DNA of 64,000 bases, taken from contig JBEPZY010000002.1 in assembly GCA_041640595.1 (NCBI GenBank), forward strand, positions 436,651 through 500,650, given 5' to 3'. The stretch comes from Gemmatales bacterium. Lineage in GTDB: Bacteria > Planctomycetota > Planctomycetia > Gemmatales > HRBIN36. Position numbers and translations under genes: made by a program. The notes beneath the pieces were generated by a model, which worked only from the letters and a program-made list of their open reading frames with translations, was not told where the DNA came from and made no database searches. Shown here piece after piece: positions 7,225-59,000 of the stretch (its first letter is position 1; every line of letters begins with the position of its first letter).

Positions 7225-9852
7225 TTAGTCAGTATTGTTCTTTTGTTGCCGGGCGGTAACTTGCCGCTTGAGGAAATCCACGGCCATTTGCAACTGCCGA
7301 TCGGTGAAAGGTTCCTGCGGTTCCGTCTTGACCGGTTCGCGTGGCGGTATGACTTCCGCTTGCCGCAGGTGCTCAATCAACTGGGCCCGTTCACCAGGTT
7401 CGAGTTTCAAGGTGTAGTCAGGATGAGGTCGCACTCCCCAATCGTCCTCCTCTTTGGACTTGCGGTCGCGGGCCAGATTTTTCCCACTCGGTCGCCAGAA
7501 AGTGGCGGTGGTGAGCTTGACTTCGCTTGGCCCTTCGGTGCGATCGAACTGCAATTCGATAATGTTCTGCACGCTGCCCTTTCCGAAGCTGCGCTCGCCC
7601 ATAATGATGCCGCGATCATGATCCTGAATGCAGGCGGAAACAATTTCGCTGGCGCTGGCACTGCCGCCATTGATCAACACCACCAGCGGAAAATCGAGGT
7701 AACTCTCCTCATGTTTCCCGGTGAACTCCACTGGTTGACCCCGGCGAGGTCGTACAGTGACGATTAGCCCATCATCCACGAACATGTCGGCGATCTTGAC
7801 GGCAGCGTCCAGGTATCCTCCGGGATTGAATCGCAGATCGAGGATCAAACCGTTCAGTCCGCTGGCTTGCAGTTCTTCTATGGCTCGCTTCAGATCGCGG
7901 TACGTGTAACGAGCGAACTGGCTGAGCCGGATGTAGGCAATTTTGTTCTGCGGGTCAATGTAATACTCCCAGCTGTCATCCGGTTTCCGTCGCACGCCGA
8001 ACACCGTTTCGACTTCGATGCGGCTGCGGGTAAGCCGGAATTGCAATTGTTTCTTCGTCCCGTCGGCCAATTCGCGTTCGATGTGCAACTGTACTTCCGT
8101 TCCTTCTTTGCCGAGGATTTTGTTGACCACGTCGCGAATGGACATGCCACGAGTTTCGATATACTCGGGTTTGGGCAACGGCTTGCCTTCCTTGTCCACG
8201 AAATTGGTTACGCCAACGATGAGATCGTCCTTCTGAATACCGGCCCGATACGCGGGGCTACCTCGCAATGGCGTAACTACGCGCACCATATCCGTGGCCA
8301 GGTCTTTCTGAATCTGCACTCCCACGCCAATGAACACTTGCTGTGTCTGGCGTTCAATCTCGGCCACCGTTTCCGGATCGATAAAGGCCGAGTAATTGTC
8401 CAGCGAATGGAGCATGGCCTCACAGGCACGGTAACTTGCCTTAGGGCCCTGGAGATCGTCCCGCTGACCAATCTGCAGCCGCACCTCCACCAGTAACTCA
8501 CGCAATTCTTCCCGCGTCAGGTCTGCGACGTTGTTCAGGCGCTTGTCCAGCGCCGGCGGGATTTTTTCGTCCATGAACCGATAAAGTCCGCGCACCGCAG
8601 CCGGGATCAGATCGGCATAGGTGAGCGGTTTCACGTAGTTCTGACGGGCAATGTCGGCGACACGCAGGACGCGATCGGCGAATTGTTCGGCTTCCTTGCG
8701 GCTGACTTGCAACGCCTGCAAGTACCGCTGCCGATGCTGTAACAGCGTCTGGGCGTCTATCTTGCCTTCGGCGAAAGCGGCGTAATGTTTACGCATTTGC
8801 CGCGGCTGCTCGAAACGCGGTACCTGCAAAAGCAGTCGCTGGCCTTCTTCGAGAACGTCGTTGGGCAAACCTGCCGCTTTCCCTCGCTTCACGAACTCCG
8901 CTATGCGTCGCTGGACAGCTCCGAAAATCCTGGGATTAATCGTGAGCGGAAAATGACCGCGGATTTCCGAGTAGAACGCCAGCGGAGCCACTGCTTTGCC
9001 CGTATCTTTTTTAGCACGCGGCGGAAACTCCTTGCGGACATACTGGAATAGTTCGTTGACCGTAATGATGCCATCCGCTTCACCAGCTTCCTGGTCAGCC
9101 TGGCCGTTCAACGCTTCCAGCATGATTTGCAGCAGCAAACCATGCCCGGACTGTTTGTCTTCCGGAGAGGGCCCCATGCCGTCGTTGGCAGATAATAGCC
9201 ACGCCGGCATGTGTCGCTGATCCGGACGACGGTCCTGCTCTTCGTCGCTGACCCGGTCAAATTCCTGGAAACGCTTTTCCAGGCCCAGGGTGGAGACCTT
9301 CTCCTTCCTCTCGTCGTAGCCGCGGAAATTTACGTCCAGAATGGCCACGATGCGATTGCTTTTGCATTGCTCCAGAAGCTGCTCCAATTGCGCTGCGTTG
9401 ATGGCGTTTTTAGCCCGATCTTTGAGGGTCGAATCGGCAGCGAAATAGCAAGTGCGATCGCCCACGGGTGCTCCCTGACCAAACCAGGCCAGCAGGACAA
9501 CCTCCTCTTCTTTCGCATTATCCAGTGCCCAGTGCAGGGCCTTGAGGATTTCTTCGCGTGTCGCTGGCAAGGCACCTGGTTGGTTTTGCGGTCGGCCCAG
9601 AAGCAGGCGGACTTTGTCGGCCGGCACCTGTCCACCGCGATCACTCGTCAACCACTGGTACAAGGCCACCGCATCCGCTTCGGCAAGCGCCCGCGGTAGA
9701 ATGACCGGGTCGGCGTACTGATTGATGCCCACAATTACCGTGTAGGCAGGGGCCGGCGTTTCTGCTCGCACAATGGCTTGCCCACTCAGCCAAACCGCCA
9801 GCAGGACAAACCAGTAGCGTGCCATCTCGACAAGCCAATTTCGCGGTCGCAT
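7225..9852 (-). CDS. Secreted S41 C-terminal processing protease (PDZ + S41) with N-terminal caspase-like (C14) domain
   Basis: Signal peptide. Caspase-fold start 'VIVGINQYADP...ADAVAL...ATREEILKAL'; PDZ 'GVGVQI...GSPAYRAGIQKDD'; S41 'LILDLRFNPGGYL', 'GGSASASEIV', 'SFGKGSVQ'. Confidence 0.88.
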   Translation of the reverse strand: MRPRNWLVEMARYWFVLLAVWLSGQAIVRAETPAPAYTVIVGINQYADPVILPRALAEADAVALYQWLTSDRGGQVPADKVRLLLGRPQNQPGALPATREEILKALHWALDNAKEEEVVLLAWFGQGAPVGDRTCYFAADSTLKDRAKNAINAAQLEQLLEQCKSNRIVAILDVNFRGYDERKEKVSTLGLEKRFQEFDRVSDEEQDRRPDQRHMPAWLLSANDGMGPSPEDKQSGHGLLLQIMLEALNGQADQEAGEADGIITVNELFQYVRKEFPPRAKKDTGKAVAPLAFYSEIRGHFPLTINPRIFGAVQRRIAEFVKRGKAAGLPNDVLEEGQRLLLQVPRFEQPRQMRKHYAAFAEGKIDAQTLLQHRQRYLQALQVSRKEAEQFADRVLRVADIARQNYVKPLTYADLIPAAVRGLYRFMDEKIPPALDKRLNNVADLTREELRELLVEVRLQIGQRDDLQGPKASYRACEAMLHSLDNYSAFIDPETVAEIERQTQQVFIGVGVQIQKDLATDMVRVVTPLRGSPAYRAGIQKDDLIVGVTNFVDKEGKPLPKPEYIETRGMSIRDVVNKILGKEGTEVQLHIERELADGTKKQLQFRLTRSRIEVETVFGVRRKPDDSWEYYIDPQNKIAYIRLSQFARYTYRDLKRAIEELQASGLNGLILDLRFNPGGYLDAAVKIADMFVDDGLIVTVRPRRGQPVEFTGKHEESYLDFPLVVLINGGSASASEIVSACIQDHDRGIIMGERSFGKGSVQNIIELQFDRTEGPSEVKLTTATFWRPSGKNLARDRKSKEEDDWGVRPHPDYTLKLEPGERAQLIEHLRQAEVIPPREPVKTEPQEPFTDRQLQMAVDFLKRQVTARQQKNNTD

Positions 9853-10720
9853 AGTGCATTCCCTCGCTATTCGGTGTTGGTCTCTCACCCTCATTTTCCG
9901 ATAGATCCACAGGCGATCTCGGCTTCGGTCATCCCGGCAAAGAGCCGTGCGTCGGCCAATTCCCGACTGGACAGTGTCAGGATGACCATTCCATCCAATC
10001 CAGATGCGCCCCATCATCGGCCGAACAGGCCCCAGACGAAGCGGGTTCAAATCCGGTTTTCTCCTCTAAGTTTAAGACGAAAAATCGCCTTCCTTAGCAC
10101 GCTCAAAGTCTAATGCAAAGTTAGACTGCTGCCGGCGCGTGTTCGGATAGTGCCTCTCCCACTGCACTGGCGTGCTGAAGTTCCGCCGCTCTTTTCCTTA
10201 GCCAATTTCATCGAGACGGTCTTGGAATAGCGGTATTGCACTGGCACCCCGAAGTGCTGCTGGCTCTCGCCCCGAGCAATCGGTGTTCACCTTTCTCGTT
10301 CTCAGCAATTCACCCACGCAGTTTCGGTTCTCGCTCAAGCCGTTGGTATGCCGCCACGATGCCCGCTTTCTCACTTCAATTGGACACCAATCACTTGACT
10401 GTGTCGGCTCGCGCGCAGCCGCGGGGGTCAGTCTCGAGGCGCTGCTATCATTTTGTGCAACATCGCTCCCTCAGTCAATGCTACCGCTCCCACAGAACGG
10501 CGACTCCACACACTTCCCACCACCCAGTCTGAACTTCTGTCCTTTGGTTCATTGCTGATTCATTGTCCAGCCAAGGGACTAACGGCCCTCAAACCGCAGT
10601 AGCTCCTTGTTCCTCTTTGCACAGGGCCAAGCCATATCCAGTTGTTGACGGACGATATTAAGGCACTTCCCTATCGTTGGATTTTGGATAAAAGAAATAG
10701 AGCGCACCGCCTTAGCTCAA

Positions 10721-10729
10721 TGGTATGAT
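10721..10729 (+). promoter_or_regulatory. Possible extended -10 element (TGnTATGAT) for the nuclease islet
   Basis: TGGTATGAT about 33 nt upstream of ATG 10762, which has a GGGAG RBS. Confidence 0.3.
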
Positions 10730-10761
10730 CCCGGCAACACCGAGCCGACAGGGAGTTTGCG

Positions 10762-11891
10762 ATGGACCTGCTAGCGTGGCTGGTTTTGGGTGTGTTAGCA
10801 GGACTTTTGGGAAGTTTCTTCGTGTCACGCAAAAATAGTGGCGCAGTAATCCTTCTTTTAACGCTTGCTATTGCTGGTACACTTGTAGGAGGTTTGAGCT
10901 ACACCGTTGGTTTCATCGGCGGTGCTTCTTTGGCCTCTCTCGGTAGGATTTCCGCCAAGAGGTCGGGGCAGCCGAAATCGTCCCGGGGCCTTGGTCGCCC
11001 ATACAGACGGGCTAGACCTAGGCGCAACCACACCCAACTTCCCGGCGAGTTGTGGGTAAGCCGAATTGCCGAGCAGTTTTATTGCGAATACAAGGTGCAT
11101 CTGCGACGTTGCCATCCGGAAGTACAAATCTTACACGATCGATTAATGCAGGGAGAAAAGGCTCACGATGCCCTCCTTTGGCAAGGCCAGGCCCATGCTG
11201 GTGACGCCTTCAACGAGAGTACTGGACTAGGCGAAGAAGCGTCCGACGATTCGAATAGCGATAGGATTTCTTGGTCAGTGTCAGGTGCCCAAGTCCGGCC
11301 CGAGCAAACGCTTGTTGCTAACCTTGAAGGGTTCCGTATTGTTGGGAGGCTTGACCTGCTTTATTTGTACGACGAAAAGGCGATCCTTATACTGGATCTA
11401 AAGCATACTGACAGCAAAGAGCCCTCTCTTGATGCTCGAGTTCAGGTTTTACTTTACGGGCTCTTGGTTGAACAACATTTTGTTACAGATGAATTGTGCC
11501 TCGGAATTGTACTAGTCCGACGGAATGTGGGGTTAACTAAGCTGCTTCTCTGTCGAGAGCAGTTCCTAGAAGAAATTTCTGTACGATGCTTGCAAGCGAG
11601 AGAGGATATGATCAGGTTCAAGCGGAAAAGACCGGAGTCGTATCTGACAACTGGCGAGCGTTTTTCTATCGGTACGATCCCGATAAAGCGAGGAAGCATC
11701 TTGACTGGGCGCTCAGGTACTGGCGAGGGGACCGAGCTCCGATCCCAGTTAAGAAGTGCCCTAATAAATGTGTAACGTGTCCGTGGAATGCGGCCAGACT
11801 CTGTCGCCATGCCTTGAAGCCTCCGGACCCAAGATTCCTCGTGAAAAAGGATAACGGACGTATCGTGATTGATCACAGAAATTTTAGCTAA
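10762..11891 (+). pseudogene. GlsB/YeaQ/YmgE-like membrane anchor fused to an Exo5/Cas4-like PD-(D/E)XK 4Fe-4S nuclease, interrupted by a -1 frameshift near 11626-11630
   Basis: Frame of 10762: TM N-terminus, 'WVSRIAEQFYCEYK', 'GEKAH', 'GRLDLL...ILDLK', 'QVLLYG'. The -1 frame continues 'LDWALRYWRGDRAP...KCVTCPWNAARLC' and supplies the three C-terminal Fe-S cysteines. The joined product would be about 376 aa. Confidence 0.75.
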
Positions 11892-11920
11892 GCCAGGCCC
11901 ACCTAATCGGGATAACAGGA

Positions 11921-12760
11921 ATGCTGAAACACACTTTTTGCCACATTCCAGGAATCGGTGAAAAAAGGGAGCAGTTCCTCTGGTCTCTAGGTATTGCTTC
12001 CTGGGAAGCGGTCTTTACCACCTACTCGTTACACATTCCGCCGCCCGTCCAAGAACTATTAAACAAAAAGGTCGAGGAGTCTTTTTACCACTACCGACAC
12101 CGGAATGTCGGCTATTTCATCGAGCAGCTTGAAAGCAAGCACCACTGGCGTCTTTATCGGGACTTCAGGGACAGTTGCGCATTTCTGGACATTGAAACTA
12201 CCGGCCTGTTCCCACCCAATAAGATAACCACGATTGCGTTGTACGACGGTCGAGATATCCGCGTTTACATTCGCGGAATAAACCTTGATCGTTTCATCCG
12301 TGATCTACAGGACTATAGCCTCGTGATTACTTACAACGGTAAGTCTTTTGATGTCCCACTAATAGAAGCCCATTTTGGGATTAAGCTAGCCCCTGCCCAT
12401 GTTGATTTGAGATATTTCCTTCAAAGCCTGGGCTATGGAGGCGGGTTGAAGCAATGCCTTCACCGGATTGGCCTTCGATGGCCTTTGCTCGAAGACGTAA
12501 GTGGACCAATCGCGGCCTACCTTTGGGAGGAGTATCGTAAAGGCAAGAACCCTAAGGCACTTGAAACTCTCCTGGCCTATAACGTTCATGATGTCATTGC
12601 CCTTAATTACTTGACGGTGCACGTGTACAACGAAAAATTGAAAAGCACACCTTTTCAAGATATTTTATCCTTAGGTGCTCCACTTAACCCGCTAGTGCCC
12701 TACCAACCAGACAGGGCGACCTTGGAGAGAATCCGTAGGCAAGCCTTGACCTTGTCTTAG
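11921..12760 (+). CDS. YprB-like RNase H-fold (DEDD) exonuclease with N-terminal helix-hairpin-helix
   Basis: 'HIPGIGEK', 'FLDIETTGL', 'ITYNGKSFDVP', 'HVDL', 'GGLK', 'AYNVHDV'. Confidence 0.85.
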   Translation: MLKHTFCHIPGIGEKREQFLWSLGIASWEAVFTTYSLHIPPPVQELLNKKVEESFYHYRHRNVGYFIEQLESKHHWRLYRDFRDSCAFLDIETTGLFPPNKITTIALYDGRDIRVYIRGINLDRFIRDLQDYSLVITYNGKSFDVPLIEAHFGIKLAPAHVDLRYFLQSLGYGGGLKQCLHRIGLRWPLLEDVSGPIAAYLWEEYRKGKNPKALETLLAYNVHDVIALNYLTVHVYNEKLKSTPFQDILSLGAPLNPLVPYQPDRATLERIRRQALTLS

Positions 12761-12865
12761 GCGACTGTTTGCTAATTGTGACTGCTGTGCCCGGTTGGAA
12801 TGGTATAGTGAGCGTGGTTAGGGAGGCCTGCGCTGGTGGGCGAAGGAAAATTAGTTGAGTGGTGG

Positions 12866-49999: not shown

Positions 50000-51101
50000 T
50001 CGGGGCCGGCCAGGTCGCTTGCTCATAACCTGTCTGGCGTGGTCTGTCTTTGGTTGCCAGCAAATGTCCTCCTTTTCGTGGTCCGACTGGAAAAAGCCAC
50101 GGGTCGAGTTGCCGCCACCGCCACCGGAAAAAGTATTTCGGGCCGGTCACTGGGAGGAAGAACCGCCTCCGCCACCTGGAACCCTGGCGGGTGATTTAGC
50201 TTCTGCGCGAGTGCTTTTCCAGCGCGGCCAGTACGAGGATGCGGAAAAGGTTTTCGCCTGGTTGGCCGACCGTGCTGAGCGTGAAAAAGACCCTAACCTT
50301 TATGAAGAGGCCCTCTATTGGCTCGGAGAATCCCAGTTCGCACAACGCAATTATCCGGCAGCAGCCGCTACCTATAAGCGTCTGCTTGATAAGTTTCCCA
50401 ACTCCCGATTCCGTGCTGAGGTCATCCGCCGCGAAGTTGAGATTGCCGAAAACTGGCTGGAAGTCACCCGTGAAGAAATGCTTAGTCGAAACCAAGGTCG
50501 GTGGTATTGGCCACGCCTGTTTAATTTCGAGAAGGAGAAACCCCTGGTCGGCGTCGAGTCGCAGGCACTCGGTATCTTGCAGGCTGCTTATTTGCAAGAC
50601 CCGACCGGCCCTCTGGCGCCCCATTGCTTAGACCGCATCGCAGCCGTCAACTATTTCCGCCAGGAATGGGAAGAGGCGGACCGATACTACAGTTTACTTA
50701 CCGAAAGTCATCCGCATTCCCCACTGGCTGTCTCTGCCTTACGGCGAGCTATCGAGGCTAAGATTAACTCCGTGCCAGGCCCGGAATATGATGACACTAA
50801 ATTAGCCGAAGCGCGTCATCTCGTGGACGTGGCATTACGCAAATATCCGGAATTGCGCGACCCTCAATCGCAAGCTTATCTTGAAACCACGGTGGCGGCT
50901 ATTCATGATCGCCAGGCTCAGAAGGATTTCAACATTGCCGAATTTTATCGCCGCACCGGTCTGCCGGGTTCCGCATATTTTTATTACGAACTGGTCCGGC
51001 GACGCTATAGCGGTACTCGATGGGCACAATTAGCTGAGCAGCGCATCCAAGAACTTCGTGCACAGGTTGAAAAAGACCACCCTCGTAACGAGAATCCATG
51101 A
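49977..51101 (+). CDS. bamD: Outer-membrane assembly lipoprotein BamD-like (TPR)
   Basis: Lipobox 'VFGC'; TPR helices 'EEALYWLGESQF..NYPAA..YKRLLDKFPNSRF'; 'IAEFYRRTG..SAYFYYELV'. Usual recO-bamD-lptE order. Confidence 0.8.
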   Translation: MGITRLANRGRPGRLLITCLAWSVFGCQQMSSFSWSDWKKPRVELPPPPPEKVFRAGHWEEEPPPPPGTLAGDLASARVLFQRGQYEDAEKVFAWLADRAEREKDPNLYEEALYWLGESQFAQRNYPAAAATYKRLLDKFPNSRFRAEVIRREVEIAENWLEVTREEMLSRNQGRWYWPRLFNFEKEKPLVGVESQALGILQAAYLQDPTGPLAPHCLDRIAAVNYFRQEWEEADRYYSLLTESHPHSPLAVSALRRAIEAKINSVPGPEYDDTKLAEARHLVDVALRKYPELRDPQSQAYLETTVAAIHDRQAQKDFNIAEFYRRTGLPGSAYFYYELVRRRYSGTRWAQLAEQRIQELRAQVEKDHPRNENP

Positions 51102-51700
51102 ACCGCTTACTTTCGGCTCGAAAAATCTATAGTGTACTTGCATACACTATACCACTCCTAGCGTCTGCCTGCACCAGTACAGGGGGCGTTAGCATCCTCG
51201 GTTACAGCTCCGACTCGAATTACGACACCAGCATTCACACCGTTCGCGTGCCCGTTTTCAGGAACCTGACTTTTTACCGAGGCATTGAATTTCAACTGAC
51301 CCAGGCGGTGATCCAGAAGATCGAAGCACGCACGCCGTGGAAGGTGGTCCAGCAAGGATATGCCGATGCCGAGTTGTTAGGTACTATCACTCAACTGCAA
51401 AAGCGTATTCCGCTGGTGAACCCGCTTAACGAGGTTCGTGAGGGTGAATATACCATGACGGTTGAAGTTAGTTTCCGCGACTTGCGAATCGGAACCGGCA
51501 TACCCGAGCCTCTCAGCCCTTCGGAGCCCACACCTTCGGAGGCCAACAGCGCTTCTTCCGGTAAGCCGCCGCCCAAAACGCTTCTTATTCGCAGCCGGCC
51601 ATTTGTCCCGGAATTAGGTCAGTCCACAGCTACAGCCCGCCAGCAACTGGTCGAAGATATCGCCGAACAGATCGTCAACATGCTCGAATCGCCCTGGTAA
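51098..51700 (+). CDS. lptE: LptE-family lipoprotein
   Basis: Lipobox 'ASAC'; 'IHTVRVPVFRNLTFYRGIEFQLTQAV', 'ADAELLGTI', 'IAEQIVNMLESPW'. Confidence 0.78.
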   Translation: MNRLLSARKIYSVLAYTIPLLASACTSTGGVSILGYSSDSNYDTSIHTVRVPVFRNLTFYRGIEFQLTQAVIQKIEARTPWKVVQQGYADAELLGTITQLQKRIPLVNPLNEVREGEYTMTVEVSFRDLRIGTGIPEPLSPSEPTPSEANSASSGKPPPKTLLIRSRPFVPELGQSTATARQQLVEDIAEQIVNMLESPW

Positions 51701-51875
51701 ATATCCTTCTAGCATTTTATCGCTTTTCCATCTGGCACCACCATGCAGAGCATTATTTATCTACACAAATGGAAGCGGTTGCTAATGTTTCCAGCTGGCT
51801 TTGGAATGCCGTTGCATTGGAAGGGGTTTCTGGTTATATACTCTCCTCTCAGAACATAAGCGGAGGAAGTTGACC

Positions 51876-52895
51876 ATGTATATCACGGCACGAGGCACGA
51901 CCTTAAGTGCAATACTAAGTGCAGCCGCACTAACTTTAGTTACCGACCTGAAATATGCGCTGGCCCAAACGCCACCTGCAAATGCCAGCGCAGCACCCGG
52001 TGCTAGTGGCCTGGGTACAGAAGTAGTTGCTCTGGTCAATAATGTTCCAATTACCCGAGCCGAATTAGCGAACGAACTTATAGCCCGCAAGGGTCGGCAG
52101 TTTCTCGAACTGCTTATCAATCGCCGCATCATCGAACAGGCCGCCGCCAAGGCTGGAGTCACCGCCACCGACAAGGAAGTCGAGGAAGAATTAGCAGAGG
52201 TGATTCGTTCCCTCAAGCTCAAAAATGCCGCCGAATTTGAAAGAACCGTGCTCAAGGATCGCCAGACCACCCTTTACGAATATAAGGAGGACGTTCTCCG
52301 CCCGGCCATTCTTATGCGAAAACTGGCGGAAAAACGCGTGCAGGTAACTGAAGAGGATTTGCGCAAGGCTTTCGAGGCCAACTATGGCGAGAAAGTACAA
52401 TGCCGTATTATCTTGATCCCCAAGTCAGATGGCCTGGGCGTCGCACTCAAGGTATATGAAAAGGTTCGCGGTAAAGGGTTGGAGGAATTTATCCGGGAAG
52501 CAAGCCAACAGCCTTCCCACCTGGCTGCTACCGGCGGTAGGATACGCCCTATCAATCGTCATTCAGCAGTACCGGAGCTAGAGCGGGCTGCATTTAGTCT
52601 TCGGGATGGCGAGATCAGTGAGATCATCGAGGTTCAGGAAGGTTATGTGATTCTTTACCGCGAACGGCTCATTCCGGCCGACACCAGTATTCGCTTCGAA
52701 GATGTGCGTGAGCTACTCTATAAGGAAGTTTACAAACGCAAGATCGAAGCTGAGATTCCTTTGCTATTCAACGAATTACGGGCAAGCGCGGTCATTAAGG
52801 ATTTCCTTAACAACCGCTTCGATGTCCAGGACATTGCTTTGCCAATCCCAAATCAAAATAAGCCCGCCTCACCCAATCCTGCTGCCAATCGGTAA
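51876..52895 (+). CDS. SurA/PrsA-like parvulin peptidyl-prolyl isomerase
   Basis: GGAGG RBS; 'VALVNNVPITRAEL', 'VQCRIILI', 'ELERAAFSLRDGEISEII'. Confidence 0.85.
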   Translation: MYITARGTTLSAILSAAALTLVTDLKYALAQTPPANASAAPGASGLGTEVVALVNNVPITRAELANELIARKGRQFLELLINRRIIEQAAAKAGVTATDKEVEEELAEVIRSLKLKNAAEFERTVLKDRQTTLYEYKEDVLRPAILMRKLAEKRVQVTEEDLRKAFEANYGEKVQCRIILIPKSDGLGVALKVYEKVRGKGLEEFIREASQQPSHLAATGGRIRPINRHSAVPELERAAFSLRDGEISEIIEVQEGYVILYRERLIPADTSIRFEDVRELLYKEVYKRKIEAEIPLLFNELRASAVIKDFLNNRFDVQDIALPIPNQNKPASPNPAANR

Positions 52896-53130
52896 GAGCA
52901 CCCGCTAATAATAAGTCCTGTTCACTGGAATAACGAAGTAACGGATGCTCGGATCAACATCTATGTAATTATTGTTAGACAAGCCGAAACGAAAACAGCG
53001 TTGACTATGCTTAAGCATTCCCGGCAGAAATGCATTGCGGTGTGAGGAGCAGTGGGACCAGTCCTTTGTTTCGTTATGGCAAAAAGTTTCTCGTGTCGCC
53101 CGAACAAAGGTTCGACAGTTTGCGAATCAT

Positions 53131-53159
53131 TTGCCAAGTCGCCAAACATAGGCTAAGCT
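53131..53159 (+). promoter_or_regulatory. Putative sigma-70 promoter of the PilZ gene
   Basis: TTGCCA-N17-TAAGCT. Confidence 0.45.
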
Positions 53160-53211
53160 TAGGGTAGAAGTGACGTTGCTGATGAATTTGCCGCTTTGTC
53201 GAGTAACAGCC

Positions 53212-53850
53212 ATGCCCCATACTCGAAGCACGAAGAAGGCCGAATCAATTGCCCATCCAAGCAATGCCTGGGAACCGGTCAAGGAGGCCATCCTTCGGCG
53301 AGCCGAAACACGCGGATTTATCCTGCCGAGAGAAATACGTGAAGAGCTGCAACGGCTCGGCCTGGATGGGCAGCAATGGCGGGAGTTTGTTCGCCAAGCG
53401 GGAACCTTACTTACTTACCGTAACGGACGCTATTATTATGTCCCGGCCTGGAATGAAGCTCGCTTACGTGAAGAAGAGCGCCAGCTTCACGTGCGTGCTC
53501 TGCTACAGGCCTTGCTTGAACATCATAAGCGAACTCAGCATCGCCAGGAACGGCGAGGAGCTGAACGCATGGAGGTGATCTGGCCTATTACCTTAATTCT
53601 CGAAGATGGCACCTTGCACCGGGCGGTGACGCGTGATATTTCTGCTGCGGGAATACGCTTTCTGGGAACTAAGTCATTACTTGGTCAGCGAGTTATCGCC
53701 CGTCTAAGTTTAGGCTCGGAACAGGAGCATGTGTTCGCCGTGAGAATTTTGTGGACTTGCGAAGCCGGTGACCAGTTATATGAAAATGGGGGCACGGTTC
53801 TCGAAGTGCTCGCCCAAACTGAAACGCAAGCCCCTGCGCCTTCTGGTTGA
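53212..53850 (+). CDS. PilZ-domain (c-di-GMP receptor) protein with N-terminal helical domain
   Basis: 'ERRGAER' (RxxxR) and 'DISAAG' (DxSxxG) motifs. Confidence 0.82.
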   Translation: MPHTRSTKKAESIAHPSNAWEPVKEAILRRAETRGFILPREIREELQRLGLDGQQWREFVRQAGTLLTYRNGRYYYVPAWNEARLREEERQLHVRALLQALLEHHKRTQHRQERRGAERMEVIWPITLILEDGTLHRAVTRDISAAGIRFLGTKSLLGQRVIARLSLGSEQEHVFAVRILWTCEAGDQLYENGGTVLEVLAQTETQAPAPSG

Positions 53851-53892
53851 CAACTCCATAACCGTTAGCGACCGTGCGTCGCACTAGAGGTG

Positions 53893-54462
53893 TTACTTAG
53901 AAGCATTTTCTAGCTTCTGCAACACGGCCTGGACAGCTCCTAAAGGATCGGAAGCGGTCGCTGAGTACTCGCGAATATGCCCTGGCCTTTGTGGGTCGGG
54001 AACACTGCACTCGAAACGCCAGCTATTGCCCTGCATTTCCAGGCGTTGCCAGGTAATACCCTTTGCCCGCAACTGTCGGAAGGTTTCTTCCCAGGAAACC
54101 GAGCGCTGGGCAGGGTTAGACCATCCCGCAGGCTGGAAAGGTTCAGTGGTCTGTGCCGTCAACGAATGTTGGCCCTCTAAGCTTTTCGTTCCGGCCACTA
54201 AGCGCGCATTTTCCACTGGCAAAGTAGAAGGTGGCTGCATGGTCGCGCTGGCACCGTTCTCCGCATCGGTCGCTGGCATAGGTGTCGGTGGAATTCGACC
54301 TAAAGGACTTCCCAGGAACGGGTCGCCCGTCTTGTTTTTCCCGGACTTAGAGGGGACACGGTTTCCTTCCAACTGCTGACAACCTGCAATGGTCAAAATC
54401 AGCAGCGCCAGGACAGTAATCAGCCACTTTCCTTTAGTTGCCGAGGCTAGCGTGGACAGCAT
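53893..54462 (-). CDS. Hypothetical lipoprotein
   Basis: Lipobox 'IAGC', low-complexity linker, small C-terminal alpha/beta domain. Confidence 0.7.
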   Translation of the reverse strand: MLSTLASATKGKWLITVLALLILTIAGCQQLEGNRVPSKSGKNKTGDPFLGSPLGRIPPTPMPATDAENGASATMQPPSTLPVENARLVAGTKSLEGQHSLTAQTTEPFQPAGWSNPAQRSVSWEETFRQLRAKGITWQRLEMQGNSWRFECSVPDPQRPGHIREYSATASDPLGAVQAVLQKLENASK

Positions 54463-54573
54463 TTTATATTTGCACTATAAGTCGGCAGTCAGCAGGCGCG
54501 CGTTATGGCCGGCCAATACTGGCACCCCGTATAGATTTTCGGCACTGGAGCAGTTCAAGTTCAGCGAAAACAC

Positions 54574-55992
54574 CTAGAAATTCCCCACTACAACCGGCAA
54601 ACTGAATTTTTTCGCCAAATTCTGAACGGAAGTATTAGTTGCCGAGCCAAACCGAAAAATCTGGGGCGTGTCCTGGAATTCCTGTTGGCTGACAAGCTCG
54701 GCGTATCCCACCAGGCTTTTCCCCCAGATGGCGACAGCCCGTACTGGCAGGATTTGACCTAACCATTCGCTTTTTCCCGGAAAAATCACCCGAACTCCAC
54801 GGCAGGCAGTTCCGCTGAGATGGCCCGGTAAACCTTCTTCGGTTTTCTCCGCTAACACCTCTAATTTTCTCCCGATCAGAGACTCTAAATACCGTCGCCG
54901 CAGTGTGCGATCCAGGTTCGCCAATTGTTCCTTGCGCCGTTGCAGGAGATGAGAGGGCACTTGATTTGGCATCTGAGCCGCTGGTGTACCTGGGCGCGGG
55001 CTGAACGGAAAGATATGTATCCAGGCAAATCCAACTCGCTCGGCTACCTCGAGGGTAGAGGCAAAATCTTCCTCCGTTTCGCCGGGAAAACCGACAATAA
55101 TGTCCGTAGAAATGGCGGGATTATCGAAGGCCTGGCGTATCAACTCGCAGTTTCTAATAAAACTCTCCACACGATACCGTCTTCGCATCGCCTGCAGGAT
55201 TTTATTCGAGCCACTCTGCAAACACACATGAAAATGAGGACAAACACGCGGATGGCGTCGGCATGCTTCTAACAATTCCCCTCGAATTTCAGCCGCCTCT
55301 AAGCTACTAAGCCGGATGCGAAATTCTCCGGGTAGCTTGGCCAGGGCGTCTAATAAATGCCATAGCCGCGACCATTCCGATTTAGGCCGACCTCGACTCA
55401 GGTCAATTCCATAATGGCCGAGGTGAATACCAGTCAGGACAATTTCACGATAACCGTTCGCAACTAACTCCCGTACTTCCTCGACAATCGCCGGTATAGG
55501 TCGGCTAACAAATCGCGGTCGCACGTAAGGTATTATGCAAAACGTGCAGTTAAGCAGGCAGCCATCCTGTACTTTGACAAATGCCCTTCGATGACCGTGA
55601 AAATGCCGAATACCAGCTGGCCAGCTTACTAAGCCCCATTCAGTCAGCAATTCTGGCAGCCGGTCTTTATCGGTTACAACACGCACGCCAGGTCCCAGCT
55701 TACTAATAGATTGCGGATCACGGCTGGCGAAACAACCCATCACAAGCACACCAAAACGCGGGCGCTCGCTGAGTAATCGTCTGATCAACCGCCGAGCCTT
55801 TGCTTCAGCTTCCTGGGTCACAGCGCAGGTGTTCACCACATATAGATCAGCTTTTCCATCCTCCACTATTTGATAGCCATTCCATTGCAAAGCTTCTTGC
55901 AGGTATTGGGATTCGTATTGATTGACCTTGCAGCCGAATGTAAACAGGCGGCATGTCTTGCGGCTTTCGATGTTCTGTACTACCATGCTCAT
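54574..55992 (-). CDS. mtaB: tRNA t6A37 methylthiotransferase MtaB (radical SAM)
   Basis: 'FGCKVNQYES', 'VNTCAVTQEA', 'KVQDGCLLNCTFCIIP', 'DIIVGFPGETEEDF', 'FPFSPRPGTPAA'. Confidence 0.92.
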   Translation of the reverse strand: MSMVVQNIESRKTCRLFTFGCKVNQYESQYLQEALQWNGYQIVEDGKADLYVVNTCAVTQEAEAKARRLIRRLLSERPRFGVLVMGCFASRDPQSISKLGPGVRVVTDKDRLPELLTEWGLVSWPAGIRHFHGHRRAFVKVQDGCLLNCTFCIIPYVRPRFVSRPIPAIVEEVRELVANGYREIVLTGIHLGHYGIDLSRGRPKSEWSRLWHLLDALAKLPGEFRIRLSSLEAAEIRGELLEACRRHPRVCPHFHVCLQSGSNKILQAMRRRYRVESFIRNCELIRQAFDNPAISTDIIVGFPGETEEDFASTLEVAERVGFAWIHIFPFSPRPGTPAAQMPNQVPSHLLQRRKEQLANLDRTLRRRYLESLIGRKLEVLAEKTEEGLPGHLSGTACRGVRVIFPGKSEWLGQILPVRAVAIWGKSLVGYAELVSQQEFQDTPQIFRFGSATNTSVQNLAKKFSLPVVVGNF

Positions 55993-56024
55993 GGTCAGGT
56001 GCTCTTCTAATGAGCCGGCGGGTC

Positions 56025-59000
56025 TTATTGCTTGCTATCGGAAGCTTCGGCGGTCACGGCCATGATAATAGGGGCTGTGTTGTCAGGGCCCTTGACGAAT
56101 TCAATCCGTCGAATAACCACATCCGGCCGCTTAGGTCGGATGACGAGATAACGGATTTGCTGCTGACCCAGCGCAAACGCAAATTCCGAGCCGGGAACAT
56201 CAACGCGGCGAATATAGTCAGCAAAATGTTCCCCGTTTTTCAGTTCGTGATCCTCACTTCGGCCATCTTCGTAATGCAACCGCACGATTAGAGATACAGA
56301 GCCCTTTTCGCCGAGCGGGAATCCCCACCCACTTACACCACTAAGCATGTGGATTGCTGATGCAGCCACGTTGCAGGGCACCTCAACAGATTTCGGCATT
56401 TTCGGAGGGAAAGTTCCTTGCGGACTATATAGGAGAATGACATTGGCTTTGTGCCCATCTTGCGGATCCATGACATGGAATGGGACTCCGCGGAAAATTT
56501 TGGGTTCCCAGTCGGGGAATACTAAGCGTTCCTGTCTGGCCTCCGCTCGGTAGAACATGCCCCGTGCGCTGGACATAGTAGCAGCCCGCTCTAATGGCAA
56601 CGGTATATACTTGCCACGCTGCGTCAAAAATTCCAGTAAATCAGCTAACTCCTGGGGTTTGAGTTGTTGCTCAAAACCTTCGGGCATAAGCGACTTAGGC
56701 GACGCCTGAATTTGTTCGATTTCATCTCGTGGAAGCACATGTTTCTTACCTTCCGCATCTAACAATTCTATCGCCGTTTTACTCTCAGCAACTAATAACC
56801 CGGTCAGCACCTGTCCGGACTTCGTGGCAATGAGATACTGGCGGTAGTTTCCCTCGACGCTGCGGCTCGGATCGAGAATTTCTATCAGCAGGTGTTCTTT
56901 GCTGTGAACTGCCATACCGGTCAAATCGGGGCCTATCTTGTTCCCTGTTCCTTGATATGTATGACACTTAGCACAATGGTTCTGAAAGACAGTTTTGCCT
57001 GCTTCGGTATTCCCCTTTGTCTTGACCACATAAAGGAGCGAATCGATTACCTTTTGCCGATCGGGATTTGGCAGGCCACCGGTGGCTGTTAATGCTTTCC
57101 TCACCAGCGGGGCGAGACGCTTATCGGAAATGTGTAACAAGCTTTGCCGATCTTCTAAGGTAAGGTCGCGGCTCGAAATAATACCTTGATTTAATGCGTC
57201 AAGGAAAGCTGGCAGCCAATCCTGGCGGGTGAGAAAGACCTTTATCAGTGCCTTTCGGCCGGCCGGAGTGAGCTGAGGTAGAAGTTTCGTCAAACGCTTG
57301 GATAAGTCGCCACGGTTAGATTCTGCTAGAACATTAGCCAGGCCCTCAATCCATTCTGGTGGCGATTGGGGATTTATCAGAGACTCCAAAAACTTCAGGA
57401 TCTCATCATCGTCGCGGGCCAGGAAGAGCAGTAAGCGGGCTGATTCTAAACGCTTACTGGTGTCCAGGGCTTCGTCTGTGATTTCCCGCCTGAGGTCGCT
57501 AACAATCTCGGAAGTATGCTTGCGTGCTACCGGGCTATTCCATCGTGCGGCGAGGGTAAGTAACAGGCGACGAGTGGTTTTAGGTACCTTTTCAATCAAC
57601 TGTTCGAGTCGGCGCTGGTTTTCCTGGCTAAGCTCCAAAGGTTTTGTTGCTGACCTGATCCAGATAGACAGGATCGCTTCTTGAGTGCTGGTGGGCCATT
57701 TATCAAGATAAGTCAAGAGCGTCTCGACGTCTCGCTGGGCATGGCGACGCGCTGTATGGGTCATAACGCGTTCAAATACGGCATGCCAGGGTCCGTCCAG
57801 TTGTTGTATTTTTCGTTTGCTGAGAGCAGCAAACCAGTCGTTCGCGTGGGTAGCGGCAGCGATTGTATAGGCATCGAGAAGACCGCGATCCTCTGATATC
57901 GAATTATTGAGGAATTGTTCTGCCAGAAACGTGATCGCTAACGGATCGGACGGCATATCCGCCAACCGCAACCAGGCAACCTTGCGCACTAAGGAATCGC
58001 TATCCTTTAAGACGCCAGAGTTCACTAAGCATTCCCTGCCTTGAGAGGTCGCGGGCAGAACCTGAATAGCATTCTTTCGCACAGCGTAGGAGGGATGCTG
58101 CAAAGCACGACCAACAGCTGCCAGGACCTTAGCATCGCCGTCCGCACGGATTACTCCAAGGCCGTGGAGGGTCCAGAGGGCGTGAATTACAGTTGTATTC
58201 AGGCCGCAAGCGTCGAGCGAGCGATCATCGAGCATCTGGACTAAGTCGGTAACGACATCTAAGCATCGGTTTTCCACCAGCAGGCGTTGAGCATGCAGGC
58301 GCCAGAATAAGTTATCGTTACGGAGTTGTTTAGCCCATTCGGCAGAACCGGCAGCGGAAAGGTTAGGCGAACGATAAGGTGGGGCGCTTTTCTGTACCAG
58401 GCGATAGATGCGGCCGTGGGTATAATCCCGAAGAGGGGTCTCGTAGGCATTACCTCGACCGGTGCGGAAACCAGGGGGCGTGGGGTTGTGCTGCACAATA
58501 TAGCTATACCAGTCTATGACCCAGACATTTCCGTCGGGACCGACTGCCGCGGCAATAGGAGCGCACCACTCGTCGTCGCTGGCGATTAGGTTCCAGCCAT
58601 AACGCGAACGATAGCCGCTACCATGACGCTCTAAAAGCATAGTAGCCACTAAGTGGCCAGTAGGCTCGGCAACAAAAGCAGCGCGATTCCAGTAAGCCTG
58701 TGGATAACGGCGTGCTGTGTATAGCATGTGCCCTGATGCCGCGGTAAATCGCCCGTGAAAATCCACCTGACGAACCTTATCAGTGATCGGGTAGAAACGA
58801 GCACTCTCGGCAATCATGAGTAAAGGTCCGGCCGACCAGCCTTGCACTTTTTCGTAATAGCGGTTTGGAATATCCAGGTAAACACTTGGATTGCCATTGG
58901 CTGTCGAGGCGAAAATCTCGCCTTCTTCGGAGATTCCCAGTCCCCAGGTATTGTTTGTGGTGCTTCGCAGAAACTCAAACTGGCTGACGCGCGGCGGCGC

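What the first reader, a model, noticed from the sequence alone, without database searches (positions are those of the whole stretch)
10762..12760. Membrane-anchored Exo5/Cas4-like Fe-S nuclease paired with a YprB-like exonuclease on a low-GC islet: candidate defence or incoming-DNA processing module
Seen in the sequence: a two-gene operon (29-bp gap) that looks more AT-rich than its flanks. Gene 1 begins with a hydrophobic helix pair ('MDLLAWLVLGVLAGLLGSFFVSRKNSGAVILLLTLAIAGTLVGG') resembling GlsB/YeaQ/YmgE stress membrane proteins. A basic linker follows, then a RecB-type nuclease (D..DxK, QxxxY) with 1+3 cysteines at 11083, 11769, 11778 and 11802. Established knowledge: the 1+3 Cys staple plus 'YWxGxRxP..KCxxC' marks the Exo5/Cas4/AddB class of ssDNA exonucleases, and gene 2 has DEDD-type RNase H-fold exonuclease motifs. 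No cas genes or helicase lie nearby. Inference: a membrane-tethered 5' exonuclease and a 3' exonuclease could degrade or process DNA entering the cell (phage injection, conjugation, uptake). I do not know of a described system with this fusion.
Basis: partly seen in the sequence, partly recalled or inferred. Interest (0 to 1): 0.72.

Follow-up and report, generated by a model that had tools for sequence, protein, structure and literature searches.

The report
Paired exonuclease islet, anchor added late
A small, optional DNA insert carries two genes predicted to chew DNA ends from opposite directions, a pairing that recurs in other bacteria and as one fused protein, but the membrane anchor was found only in this species and the anchored gene is broken in this strain.

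Summary
The anatomy is real, with one omission: gene 1 is frameshifted at 11625/11626 in this strain and intact (376 aa) in 11 of 15 conspecific alleles. Gene 1 is a prokaryotic EXO5/Cas4-like nuclease with a 1+3 Cys staple (profile to human EXO5 E=5e-14). Gene 2 is an HhH + RNase_H_2 exonuclease with DEDDy, not MrfB-type DEDDh, residues. Both lie on a 2.29-kb islet (49.9% GC against 57.6%) that an alternative allele lacks. The pairing holds up: 5 of 13 distinct homologous loci have gene 2 beside gene 1, against 19 of 400 phylum genomes carrying gene 2 at all, and three natural proteins fuse both halves, echoing the TM0106/COG2251 domain order. The membrane idea does not generalise: 0 of 144 listed nuclease homologues carry the GlsB/YeaQ-like segment, which is a truncated add-on found only in this species. 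Defence-island context is weak (a restriction-modification system near 1 of those 13 loci). Best reading: an accessory 5'+3' exonuclease unit that likely destroys free-ended DNA, most likely foreign; a repair role is a close rival. New variant of a known kind; interest 0.42.

The parts
10499..12792 (.). Accessory islet, about 2.29 kb, replaced by about 0.28 kb of unrelated sequence in an alternative allele; no terminal repeats or integrase found
   Evidence: Joints 10492->12787 (X5) and 10498->12793 (X7), loose ends at the same edges in X3, X10, X11; GC 49.9%; repeat scan. Joints have short sides (24, 30 nt) at 85% likeness, so the other allele could belong to a sister population
10721..10755 (+). 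Possible extended -10 box (10721-10729) and Shine-Dalgarno-like GGGAG (10751-10755) ahead of the ATG at 10762
   Evidence: Read by eye; not listed by the sigma-70 scan
10762..10947 (+). Gene 1 residues 1-62: truncated GlsB/YeaQ/YmgE-like membrane segment (two clear hydrophobic helices; the family's third strong helix is missing)
   Evidence: no PF04226 hit
10948..11046 (+). Gene 1 residues 63-95: basic, predicted disordered linker; the most variable part among alleles
   Evidence: pLDDT below 50; 9 of 33 sites variable in 11 intact alleles
11047..11625 (+). Gene 1 EXO5/Cas4-like PD-(D/E)XK nuclease, N-terminal part: C108, H135, E181, D198, D212, K214, Q228, Y232
   Evidence: PF12705; conserved columns; human EXO5 best PDB hit
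11625..11626 (+). One-base frameshift in this strain; frame 1 runs on to a stop at 11775 (337 aa, three cysteines lost)
   Evidence: intact natural allele P0001
11627..11891 (+). Out-of-frame C-terminal part of gene 1 with YWxGxRxP and the three distal cysteines (11769, 11778, 11802)
   Evidence: PF09810 E=0.008; matches P0001 285-376
11921..12760 (+). Gene 2 (279 aa, intact): N-terminal HhH-like helices plus RNase_H_2 3'-5' exonuclease with D90, E92, D144, Y220, D224 (DEDDy); no TPR
   Evidence: (pLDDT 93)

Best explanation
The islet encodes a horizontally acquired, optional pair of nucleases, an EXO5/Cas4-like Fe-S enzyme predicted to cut single-stranded DNA from 5' ends and an HhH-DEDDy enzyme predicted to trim 3' ends, which together likely destroy free-ended DNA, most likely foreign DNA. 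Shown: the folds, catalytic residues, the accessory islet, the recurring adjacency and the existence of fused versions. Inferred: polarity and substrates (from EXO5, Cas4, MrfB and PolB proofreading domains), joint action (from adjacency and fusion) and the foreign-DNA target (from patchy, polymorphic, repeatedly broken occurrence). The GlsB/YeaQ-like N-terminus is a late fusion found only in this species; it would tether intact gene-1 product to the inner membrane but is not needed for the unit elsewhere. In the window's strain the frameshift removes three of four Fe-S ligands, so gene 1 is likely dead and only gene 2 is left.
For: Profile A1 hits human EXO5 over its whole length, E=5e-14, ahead of Cas4 SSO0001 at 0.003; model pLDDT 79, Foldseek top hits EXO5 then Cas4, VIA Z 14.9 (rmsd 3.4, 182 aligned) for EXO5, tied with Cas4 14.5. 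Gene 2 catalytic residues invariant in 60 of 60; top folds PolB proofreading domains and NrnC. Adjacent gene 2 in 5 of 13 distinct non-conspecific loci with downstream DNA (L012, L013, L019-group same strand; L015 tail-to-tail; L057 convergent with one gene between), plus P0002/P0013 on equal-length 3422-bp contigs (indirect), against gene-2 orthologues in only 19 of 400 phylum genomes. Three fused proteins P0194/P0294/P0295 match the gene-1 profile (Prob 100, E=2e-39) and the gene-2 profile including HhH (Prob 93.6, E=2e-7). Rarity: gene-1 family in 1 of 400 phylum and 1 of 400 class genomes; nuclease part in 0 of 60 closest relatives. Islet polymorphic in 5 of 6 non-source runs; 3 of 15 alleles broken at three different places.
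Against: The link is not obligatory: 8 of 13 loci show no adjacent gene 2 (5 of the 8 have under 1 kb downstream); genomes G463 and G465 have gene 1 but only distant gene-2 hits; 25 of 25 solo gene-2 loci have no gene-1 homologue within about 1.5 kb. The same-strand pairs fall in one 7-row clade, so they may be one event. The fused proteins' exonuclease half is only distantly related to gene 2 (BLAST E=3e-5). Defence context is thin: type II RM near L018 only, HicB near L019, AbiEii near L033; most neighbours are housekeeping. No hits in phages, plasmids or viral contigs. The closest characterised relatives (EXO5, MrfB) are repair enzymes. Broken alleles in metagenome assemblies may be errors.
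Confidence: 0.4

Rival explanations
1. The pair is an accessory DNA-repair module that trims 5' and 3' single-stranded tails at breaks, flaps or excised adducts, in the manner of EXO5 and MrfB, borrowing a helicase encoded elsewhere.
For: Nearest characterised relatives are repair enzymes: EXO5 in fork restart after crosslinks (PMC12004521 passages) and MrfB in mitomycin C repair (10.1101/426304; PMC11194089; PDB 8UN9 E=3e-4). HhH domain on gene 2. Mostly housekeeping neighbours.
Against: No YprA/MrfA helicase (PF09369) in this 95%-complete genome; no TPR; DEDDy rather than DEDDh; very patchy and polymorphic occurrence, unusual for core repair.
Confidence: 0.3
2. One reading: the membrane-tethered nuclease is a gatekeeper that attacks DNA at the point of entry, like SNIPE, with gene 2 finishing the job.
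For: The fusion is in frame in all 14 of 15 alleles that include the N-terminus; the membrane part is less variable than the linker (3 of 62 against 9 of 33 sites, Fisher p=0.003), with conservative changes; the basic linker favours a cytoplasmic nuclease (inference); SNIPE is a precedent (10.1101/2025.11.03.685801 passages).
Against: 0 of 144 listed nuclease homologues carry a membrane segment, whereas about two thirds of SNIPE homologues do; fusion seen in one species only; this species' gene 1 has the longest branch of its 7-row clade (1.23 against 0.2-0.4 for L012, L013, L018, L019; P0126 1.19, P0002 0.67) and 3 of 15 alleles are broken.
Confidence: 0.12
3. The islet is decaying cargo: the two nucleases travel together by history, work independently or not at all here, and the membrane piece is an accidental in-frame capture.
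For: Three independent frame breaks in 15 alleles; changes at family-conserved sites and a disordered insertion in gene 1; among the SNPs the tool listed, nuclease 11 replacement to 6 silent against 10 to 13 in gene 2 (difference not significant, p=0.22; lists incomplete); each gene often occurs alone.
Against: All catalytic and Fe-S residues are kept in 11 of 11 intact alleles; the pair recurs in two orientations and as fusions.
Confidence: 0.15

Closest known systems
EXO5 / Dem1 (PF09810; human EXO5, PDB 7LW7-7LWA)
   Same: Whole-length profile match E=5e-14; 1+3 Cys staple (human C92/C356/C359/C365 per PMC12004521); YWxGxRxP...KCxxC tail; top structural hit. Prokaryotic EXO5-like members are already noted (PMC3424549 passages).
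   Different: P0001 itself is under the Pfam cut-off (17.5 against 25 bits); last Cys spacing x7, not x5; paired with a 3' exonuclease; membrane segment in this species only.
TM0106 / COG2251 RecB-like nuclease (TIGR03491) and DUF2779
   Same: Same domain order in one chain: Cas4-like PD-(D/E)XK, HhH, RNase_H_2 (PF13482 + DUF83 combination described in PMC3985635 passages). Fused relatives of gene 1 score 67-86 bits on TIGR03491.
   Different: Here two genes; gene 2 scores 26.6 bits (cut-off 97.45); profile similarity to five true TM0106 proteins is weak (E=0.002 and 0.0004); no helicase. Function of that family is itself uncharacterised as far as my searches show.
MrfB/YprB of MrfAB (Bacillus subtilis mitomycin C repair)
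   Same: PF13482 3'-5' exonuclease core; best PDB sequence hit 8UN9, E=3e-4.
   Different: DEDDy (Y220 aligns with MrfB H258), N-terminal HhH instead of C-terminal TPR, no MrfA helicase in the genome.
Cas4, solo-Cas4 and PF12705 Cas4-like proteins
   Same: Fold and Fe-S staple (Z 14.5); weak TIGR00372 and PADLOC Cas4 hits.
   Different: Far below cut-off (26 against 65 bits); no cas genes nearby; PMC5704561 passages list UvrD, YprA, RM and MGE contexts but showed no RNase H-fold or membrane partner for my search terms.
SNIPE (membrane-bound anti-phage nuclease)
   Same: N-terminal membrane anchor plus cytoplasmic nuclease.
   Different: SNIPE is GIY-YIG + DUF4041, membrane targeting is common across its family and defence is shown; none of this applies here.

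Membership tests
EXO5 (PF09810) | 1+3 cysteine 4Fe-4S staple around a RecB-type core | tested here: met
   C108, C337, C340, C348 invariant in 35 of 35 and 31 of 31; met for intact alleles, not for the window's frameshifted product
EXO5 (PF09810) | Whole-length sequence or profile similarity to EXO5 | tested here: met
   A1 against PDB: EXO5 E=5e-14, profile 9-252 of 285
EXO5 (PF09810) | Score above the Pfam cut-off | tested here: not met
   P0001 17.5 bits against 25; relatives P0002 (30.5), P0136, P0140, P0213, P0214 pass
EXO5 (PF09810) | Structure closer to EXO5 than to Cas4/AdnA | tested here: inconclusive
   Z 14.9 EXO5, 14.5 Cas4, 13.9 AdnA: tied within 1
EXO5 (PF09810) | Sliding ssDNA exonuclease activity, bound Fe-S cluster | not testable with these tools
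   Needs biochemistry
CRISPR-associated Cas4 | Encoded with cas1/cas2; TIGR00372 above cut-off | tested here: not met
   26 against 65 bits; Cas1 only on contigs C1 and C8; no cas genes among window ORFs scanned
MrfAB | DEDD exonuclease core (PF13482) | tested here: met
   E=4e-32; D90, E92, D144, D224 invariant
MrfAB | DEDDh histidine and C-terminal TPR | tested here: not met
   Y220 at the H258 position; no TPR in Pfam scan or model
MrfAB | YprA/MrfA helicase partner | tested here: not met
   PF09369 not found in G000 (95.5% complete; rings in 8 of 14 controls)
TM0106 / COG2251 | Order Cas4-like nuclease, HhH, RNase_H_2 | tested here: met
   Same order across the two genes; fused relatives collinear
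TM0106 / COG2251 | Single chain scoring above TIGR03491 cut-off | tested here: not met
   Gene 2 26.6 bits, fused relatives 67-86 bits, cut-off 97.45
GlsB/YeaQ/YmgE (PF04226) | Sequence similarity of the N-terminal helices | tested here: inconclusive
   NF007771 E=1e-4 below cut-off; five small homologues E about 1e-4 that weakly hit PF04226; the segment itself does not
GlsB/YeaQ/YmgE (PF04226) | Stand-alone small protein with a third hydrophobic helix | tested here: not met
   Fused and cut after about residue 62; compare L002/L003 proteins
SNIPE | GIY-YIG nuclease plus DUF4041; membrane targeting common in the family | tested here: not met
   PD-(D/E)XK instead; 0 of 144 homologues with a membrane segment
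Known PADLOC defence systems | Strong profile match plus system partners | tested here: not met
   Only weak Cas4/DruK/DEDDh hits, E 1e-6 to 1e-2, no partner genes
Any defence system | Protection against phage or plasmid | not testable with these tools
   Needs experiment

The most novel reading that the evidence does not exclude
An undescribed two-exonuclease anti-invader system built on a prokaryotic EXO5 homologue, which this hot-spring lineage has moved to the inner membrane by capturing a GlsB/YeaQ helix pair, giving a second, independently evolved route to SNIPE-like destruction of DNA at entry, switched off in some strains by frameshifts.
Probability: 0.12. Interest if true: 0.75.

Novelty: new variant of a known kind. 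Interest (0 to 1): 0.42.

Why it matters
It flags a family of prokaryotic EXO5 relatives with a recurring 3'-exonuclease partner, split here and fused elsewhere, whose domain order mirrors the widespread, uncharacterised TM0106/COG2251 proteins. A small soluble pair is an easy handle on what that Cas4-like + RNase_H_2 combination does (defence or repair) and on bacterial antecedents of EXO5. The membrane form would matter only if anchoring changes function; at present it is a single-species oddity.

Tried and rejected
Sequencing error as cause of the frameshift: not favoured, since two runs and contig L017 share it, though these may be one source. Programmed frameshift: rejected, other alleles simply carry the extra base. 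Linker as an out-of-frame third GlsB helix: the other two frames, read by eye, are not hydrophobic. Apparent N-terminal matches in L026 and L027: the membrane segment alone does not hit them; the long upstream frames of L014/L026 look like antisense shadows of a neighbouring gene (dnaJ in L024; inference). Complex prediction of the two proteins gave no answer (score 0.01); no evidence either way. Test of one clade for adjacent gene-2 copies did not finish; both gene-2 trees are quick trees and poorly resolved. RNA run X10 contigs cover most of the islet but also the flanks, so transcription is not shown. No Rfam RNA, terminal repeats or convincing promoter/terminator by scan. A motif from the alternative allele is not found in G000. 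Congeners G001 and G003 have different genes upstream of the S41 peptidase, and the M50 gene was not found at E<=1e-20 in 5 relatives, so no empty site could be read there. No homologues in phages, plasmids or viral contigs. ESM Atlas gave no result. Two primary EXO5 papers were not held. Earlier scan findings: nothing in 3 look-ups. Literature searches for the pair found no description; subscription journals and supplements were not covered. Genomic context of the fused proteins and of the distant clades could not be fetched.

Full report
Observation. The window is G000:C2:436651-500650 of a 4.45-Mb, 95.5%-complete genome. The nine best-holding runs are labelled hot springs metagenome, and the named genomes with related loci are Planctomycetota. 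Two + strand genes lie at 10762-11891 and 11921-12760 with a 29-bp gap. Gene 1 is split: frame 1 gives 337 aa ending at 11775, while the YWxGxRxP..KCxxC tail with cysteines at 11769, 11778 and 11802 is in an overlapping frame (11586-11891). Laying eight runs shows one base missing at 11625/11626: X1 and X2 (flagged as possible sources of this DNA) match the window, and all six others carry the extra base. The 90% cluster has 15 members: 11 intact at 376 aa, one starting at residue 129, and three (the window's, P0280, P0281) leaving the frame at three different places (assembly errors not excluded). I used the natural intact allele P0001 for all searches.

Islet. Contigs in X5 and X7 join 10492/10498 to 12787/12793, with about 280 other bases between in X5; X3, X10 and X11 have loose ends at the same edges. 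So 5 of 6 non-source runs show an allele without the cassette. The tool warns that such short-sided joints at 85% likeness may come from another organism. The islet is 49.9% GC against 57.6% for the genome (z=-2.6; lowest 2.0% of 1921 windows); GC3 is 0.49 and 0.53 against 0.63; the right flank is also low, 52.9%. No terminal repeats or RNA families were found. Flanks are an S41 peptidase and an M50 peptidase; no cas gene, and no helicase nearer than UvrB at 37-39 kb, among the 38 ORFs scanned.

Gene 1. P0001 hits PF12705 (E=1e-8) and weakly Exo5 (17.5 bits). A library-wide search gave 162 homologues at E<=0.001, 150 listed: P0001, five small proteins matching only the N-terminus, and 144 matching the nuclease. 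C108, D198, K214, Q228, Y232, C337, C340 and C348 are invariant in 35 aligned members. The family profile's best solved relative is human EXO5 over the whole length (E=5e-14; Cas4 SSO0001 0.003); the model (pLDDT 79) matches EXO5 and Cas4 about equally (Z 14.9 and 14.5). It works like EXO5/Cas4 by inference; it is not a CRISPR Cas4.

Membrane segment. Residues 1-62 resemble the first two helices of GlsB/YeaQ/YmgE proteins, lack the third strong helix and are followed by a basic disordered linker. None of the 144 nuclease homologues has a comparable hydrophobic N-terminus (highest window 1.78, inside a fragment's core, against 2.37; many are fragments), typical full-length ones start just before an LRxGL motif, and the segment alone hits no homologous locus except the conspecific L017. 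Within the species it is in frame in all 14 alleles that include it and is less variable than the linker (3 of 62 against 9 of 33 sites; p=0.003) but no less variable than the nuclease (p=0.32). So the fusion is real and perhaps maintained, but was found in this species only. G000 has no stand-alone PF04226 gene.

Gene 2. PF13482 (E=4e-32) with a weak Cdd1/HhH-like N-terminus; 4098 homologues at E<=1e-20. D90, E92, D144, Y220 and D224 are invariant in 60 of 60. Y220 aligns with MrfB H258, so this is DEDDy; its model (pLDDT 93) best matches PolB proofreading domains and NrnC. It has no TPR and the genome has no PF09369 helicase, so it is not MrfB of MrfAB.

Are they a unit? Pattern scans gave 5 genome and 16 metagenome loci (one pattern, so the close clade only), and genome searches added L033 and L057. 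Dropping the conspecific L017, four loci cut by contig ends (L025, L027, L032, L033) and duplicates (L020-L023, L029) leaves 13. Gene 2 is adjacent in five: L012, L013 and L019 on the same strand, L015 tail-to-tail, L057 convergent across one SET-like gene (that label is recalled, not from a call). It is not adjacent in eight, five of which have under 1 kb downstream. P0002 and P0013 sit on contigs of equal length, 3422. Background: gene-2 orthologues in 19 of 400 phylum genomes and 6 of 60 relatives, the gene-1 family in 1 of 400 (a different genome) and 0 of 60; none of 25 solo gene-2 loci has gene 1 nearby. In G461, G462 and G464 the genome's only close gene-2 copy is the adjacent one; G463 and G465 lack it. 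In the gene-1 tree the same-strand pairs lie in one supported 7-row clade and L015 in a sister clade, so one ancestral linkage with losses and an inversion is enough. Separately, three 580-aa proteins of a distant branch fuse the nuclease to HhH + RNase_H_2, collinear with gene 1 (E=2e-39) and gene 2 (E=2e-7). This is the domain order of TM0106/COG2251; the Cas4-like + PF13482 combination is in print (PMC3985635 passages), though true TM0106 proteins are only weakly similar to either gene.

Function. Opposite-polarity exonucleases without a helicase would degrade DNA that already has free or single-stranded ends (inference). Rarity, polymorphism and repeated breakage lean to an anti-invader role; neighbours give little support (RM at L018, HicB at L019, AbiEii at L033, otherwise housekeeping), and EXO5 and MrfB are repair enzymes. 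I put 0.40 on free-end destruction aimed mainly at foreign DNA, 0.30 on repair, 0.15 on decaying cargo and 0.12 on a SNIPE-like membrane gatekeeper (SNIPE).

Literature seen, as keyword passages only: PMC11981726, PMC3424549, 10.1101/426304 (53), 10.1101/2025.09.15.676423 (59), PMC5704561, PMC10653904, PMC3985635, PMC11194089, PMC12004521, 10.1101/2025.11.03.685801 (127). No supplements were read; the SNIPE list of N-terminal domains and the Cas4 neighbourhood tables could bear on novelty. Searches found no description of this pair or fusion.

Verdict. Real, non-random two-nuclease cassette; a new split, EXO5-like variant of a known domain combination. The membrane anchor is a single-species addition and the anchored gene is broken here. 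Interest 0.42.

Noticed in passing
P0194, P0294, P0295: 580-aa natural fusions of the EXO5-like nuclease, HhH, RNase_H_2 and a C-terminal cysteine-rich tail; just under the TM0106 cut-off; genomic context unknown.
   Followed up: partly
P0213, P0230, P0214, P0255, P0136, P0140: Other homologues carry different add-ons: about 190-aa unclassified N-terminal domains, a SAP domain, helical extensions, or (P0255) a C-terminal domain with loss of the first Fe-S cysteine. The nuclease recruits extra domains often.
   Followed up: no
L013:5088-5681 and L018:2486-3151: The same unknown 200-aa gene (no Pfam or PADLOC hit) lies directly upstream of the nuclease in two loci; L018 also has a type II restriction-modification pair and DUF433.
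   Followed up: partly
L015:5968-7805 and L057:180-1660: Convergent arrangement of the same two genes in two related genomes, one with a small gene between.
   Followed up: partly
window 10375-10500: Many short divergent contigs and a one-base indel at 10423/10424 just left of the islet edge: a highly polymorphic intergenic stretch, single-copy in G000.
   Followed up: partly
window 7225-10050 (-): 941-aa protein with C-terminal PDZ + S41 peptidase and a long N-terminal region that looks caspase-like by eye (no Pfam hit there); conserved in congeners G001 and G003.
   Followed up: no
P0253, P0258, P0259, P0260, P0266: These GlsB/YeaQ-like hits also end in basic, non-hydrophobic tails and look like frameshifted copies, which may be why they resemble the fused segment.
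   Followed up: no
window 51000-58000: A second low-GC stretch (50-54%) around a rotamase, a radical SAM gene and DUF7133; the islet's GC dip is not unique in the window.
   Followed up: no
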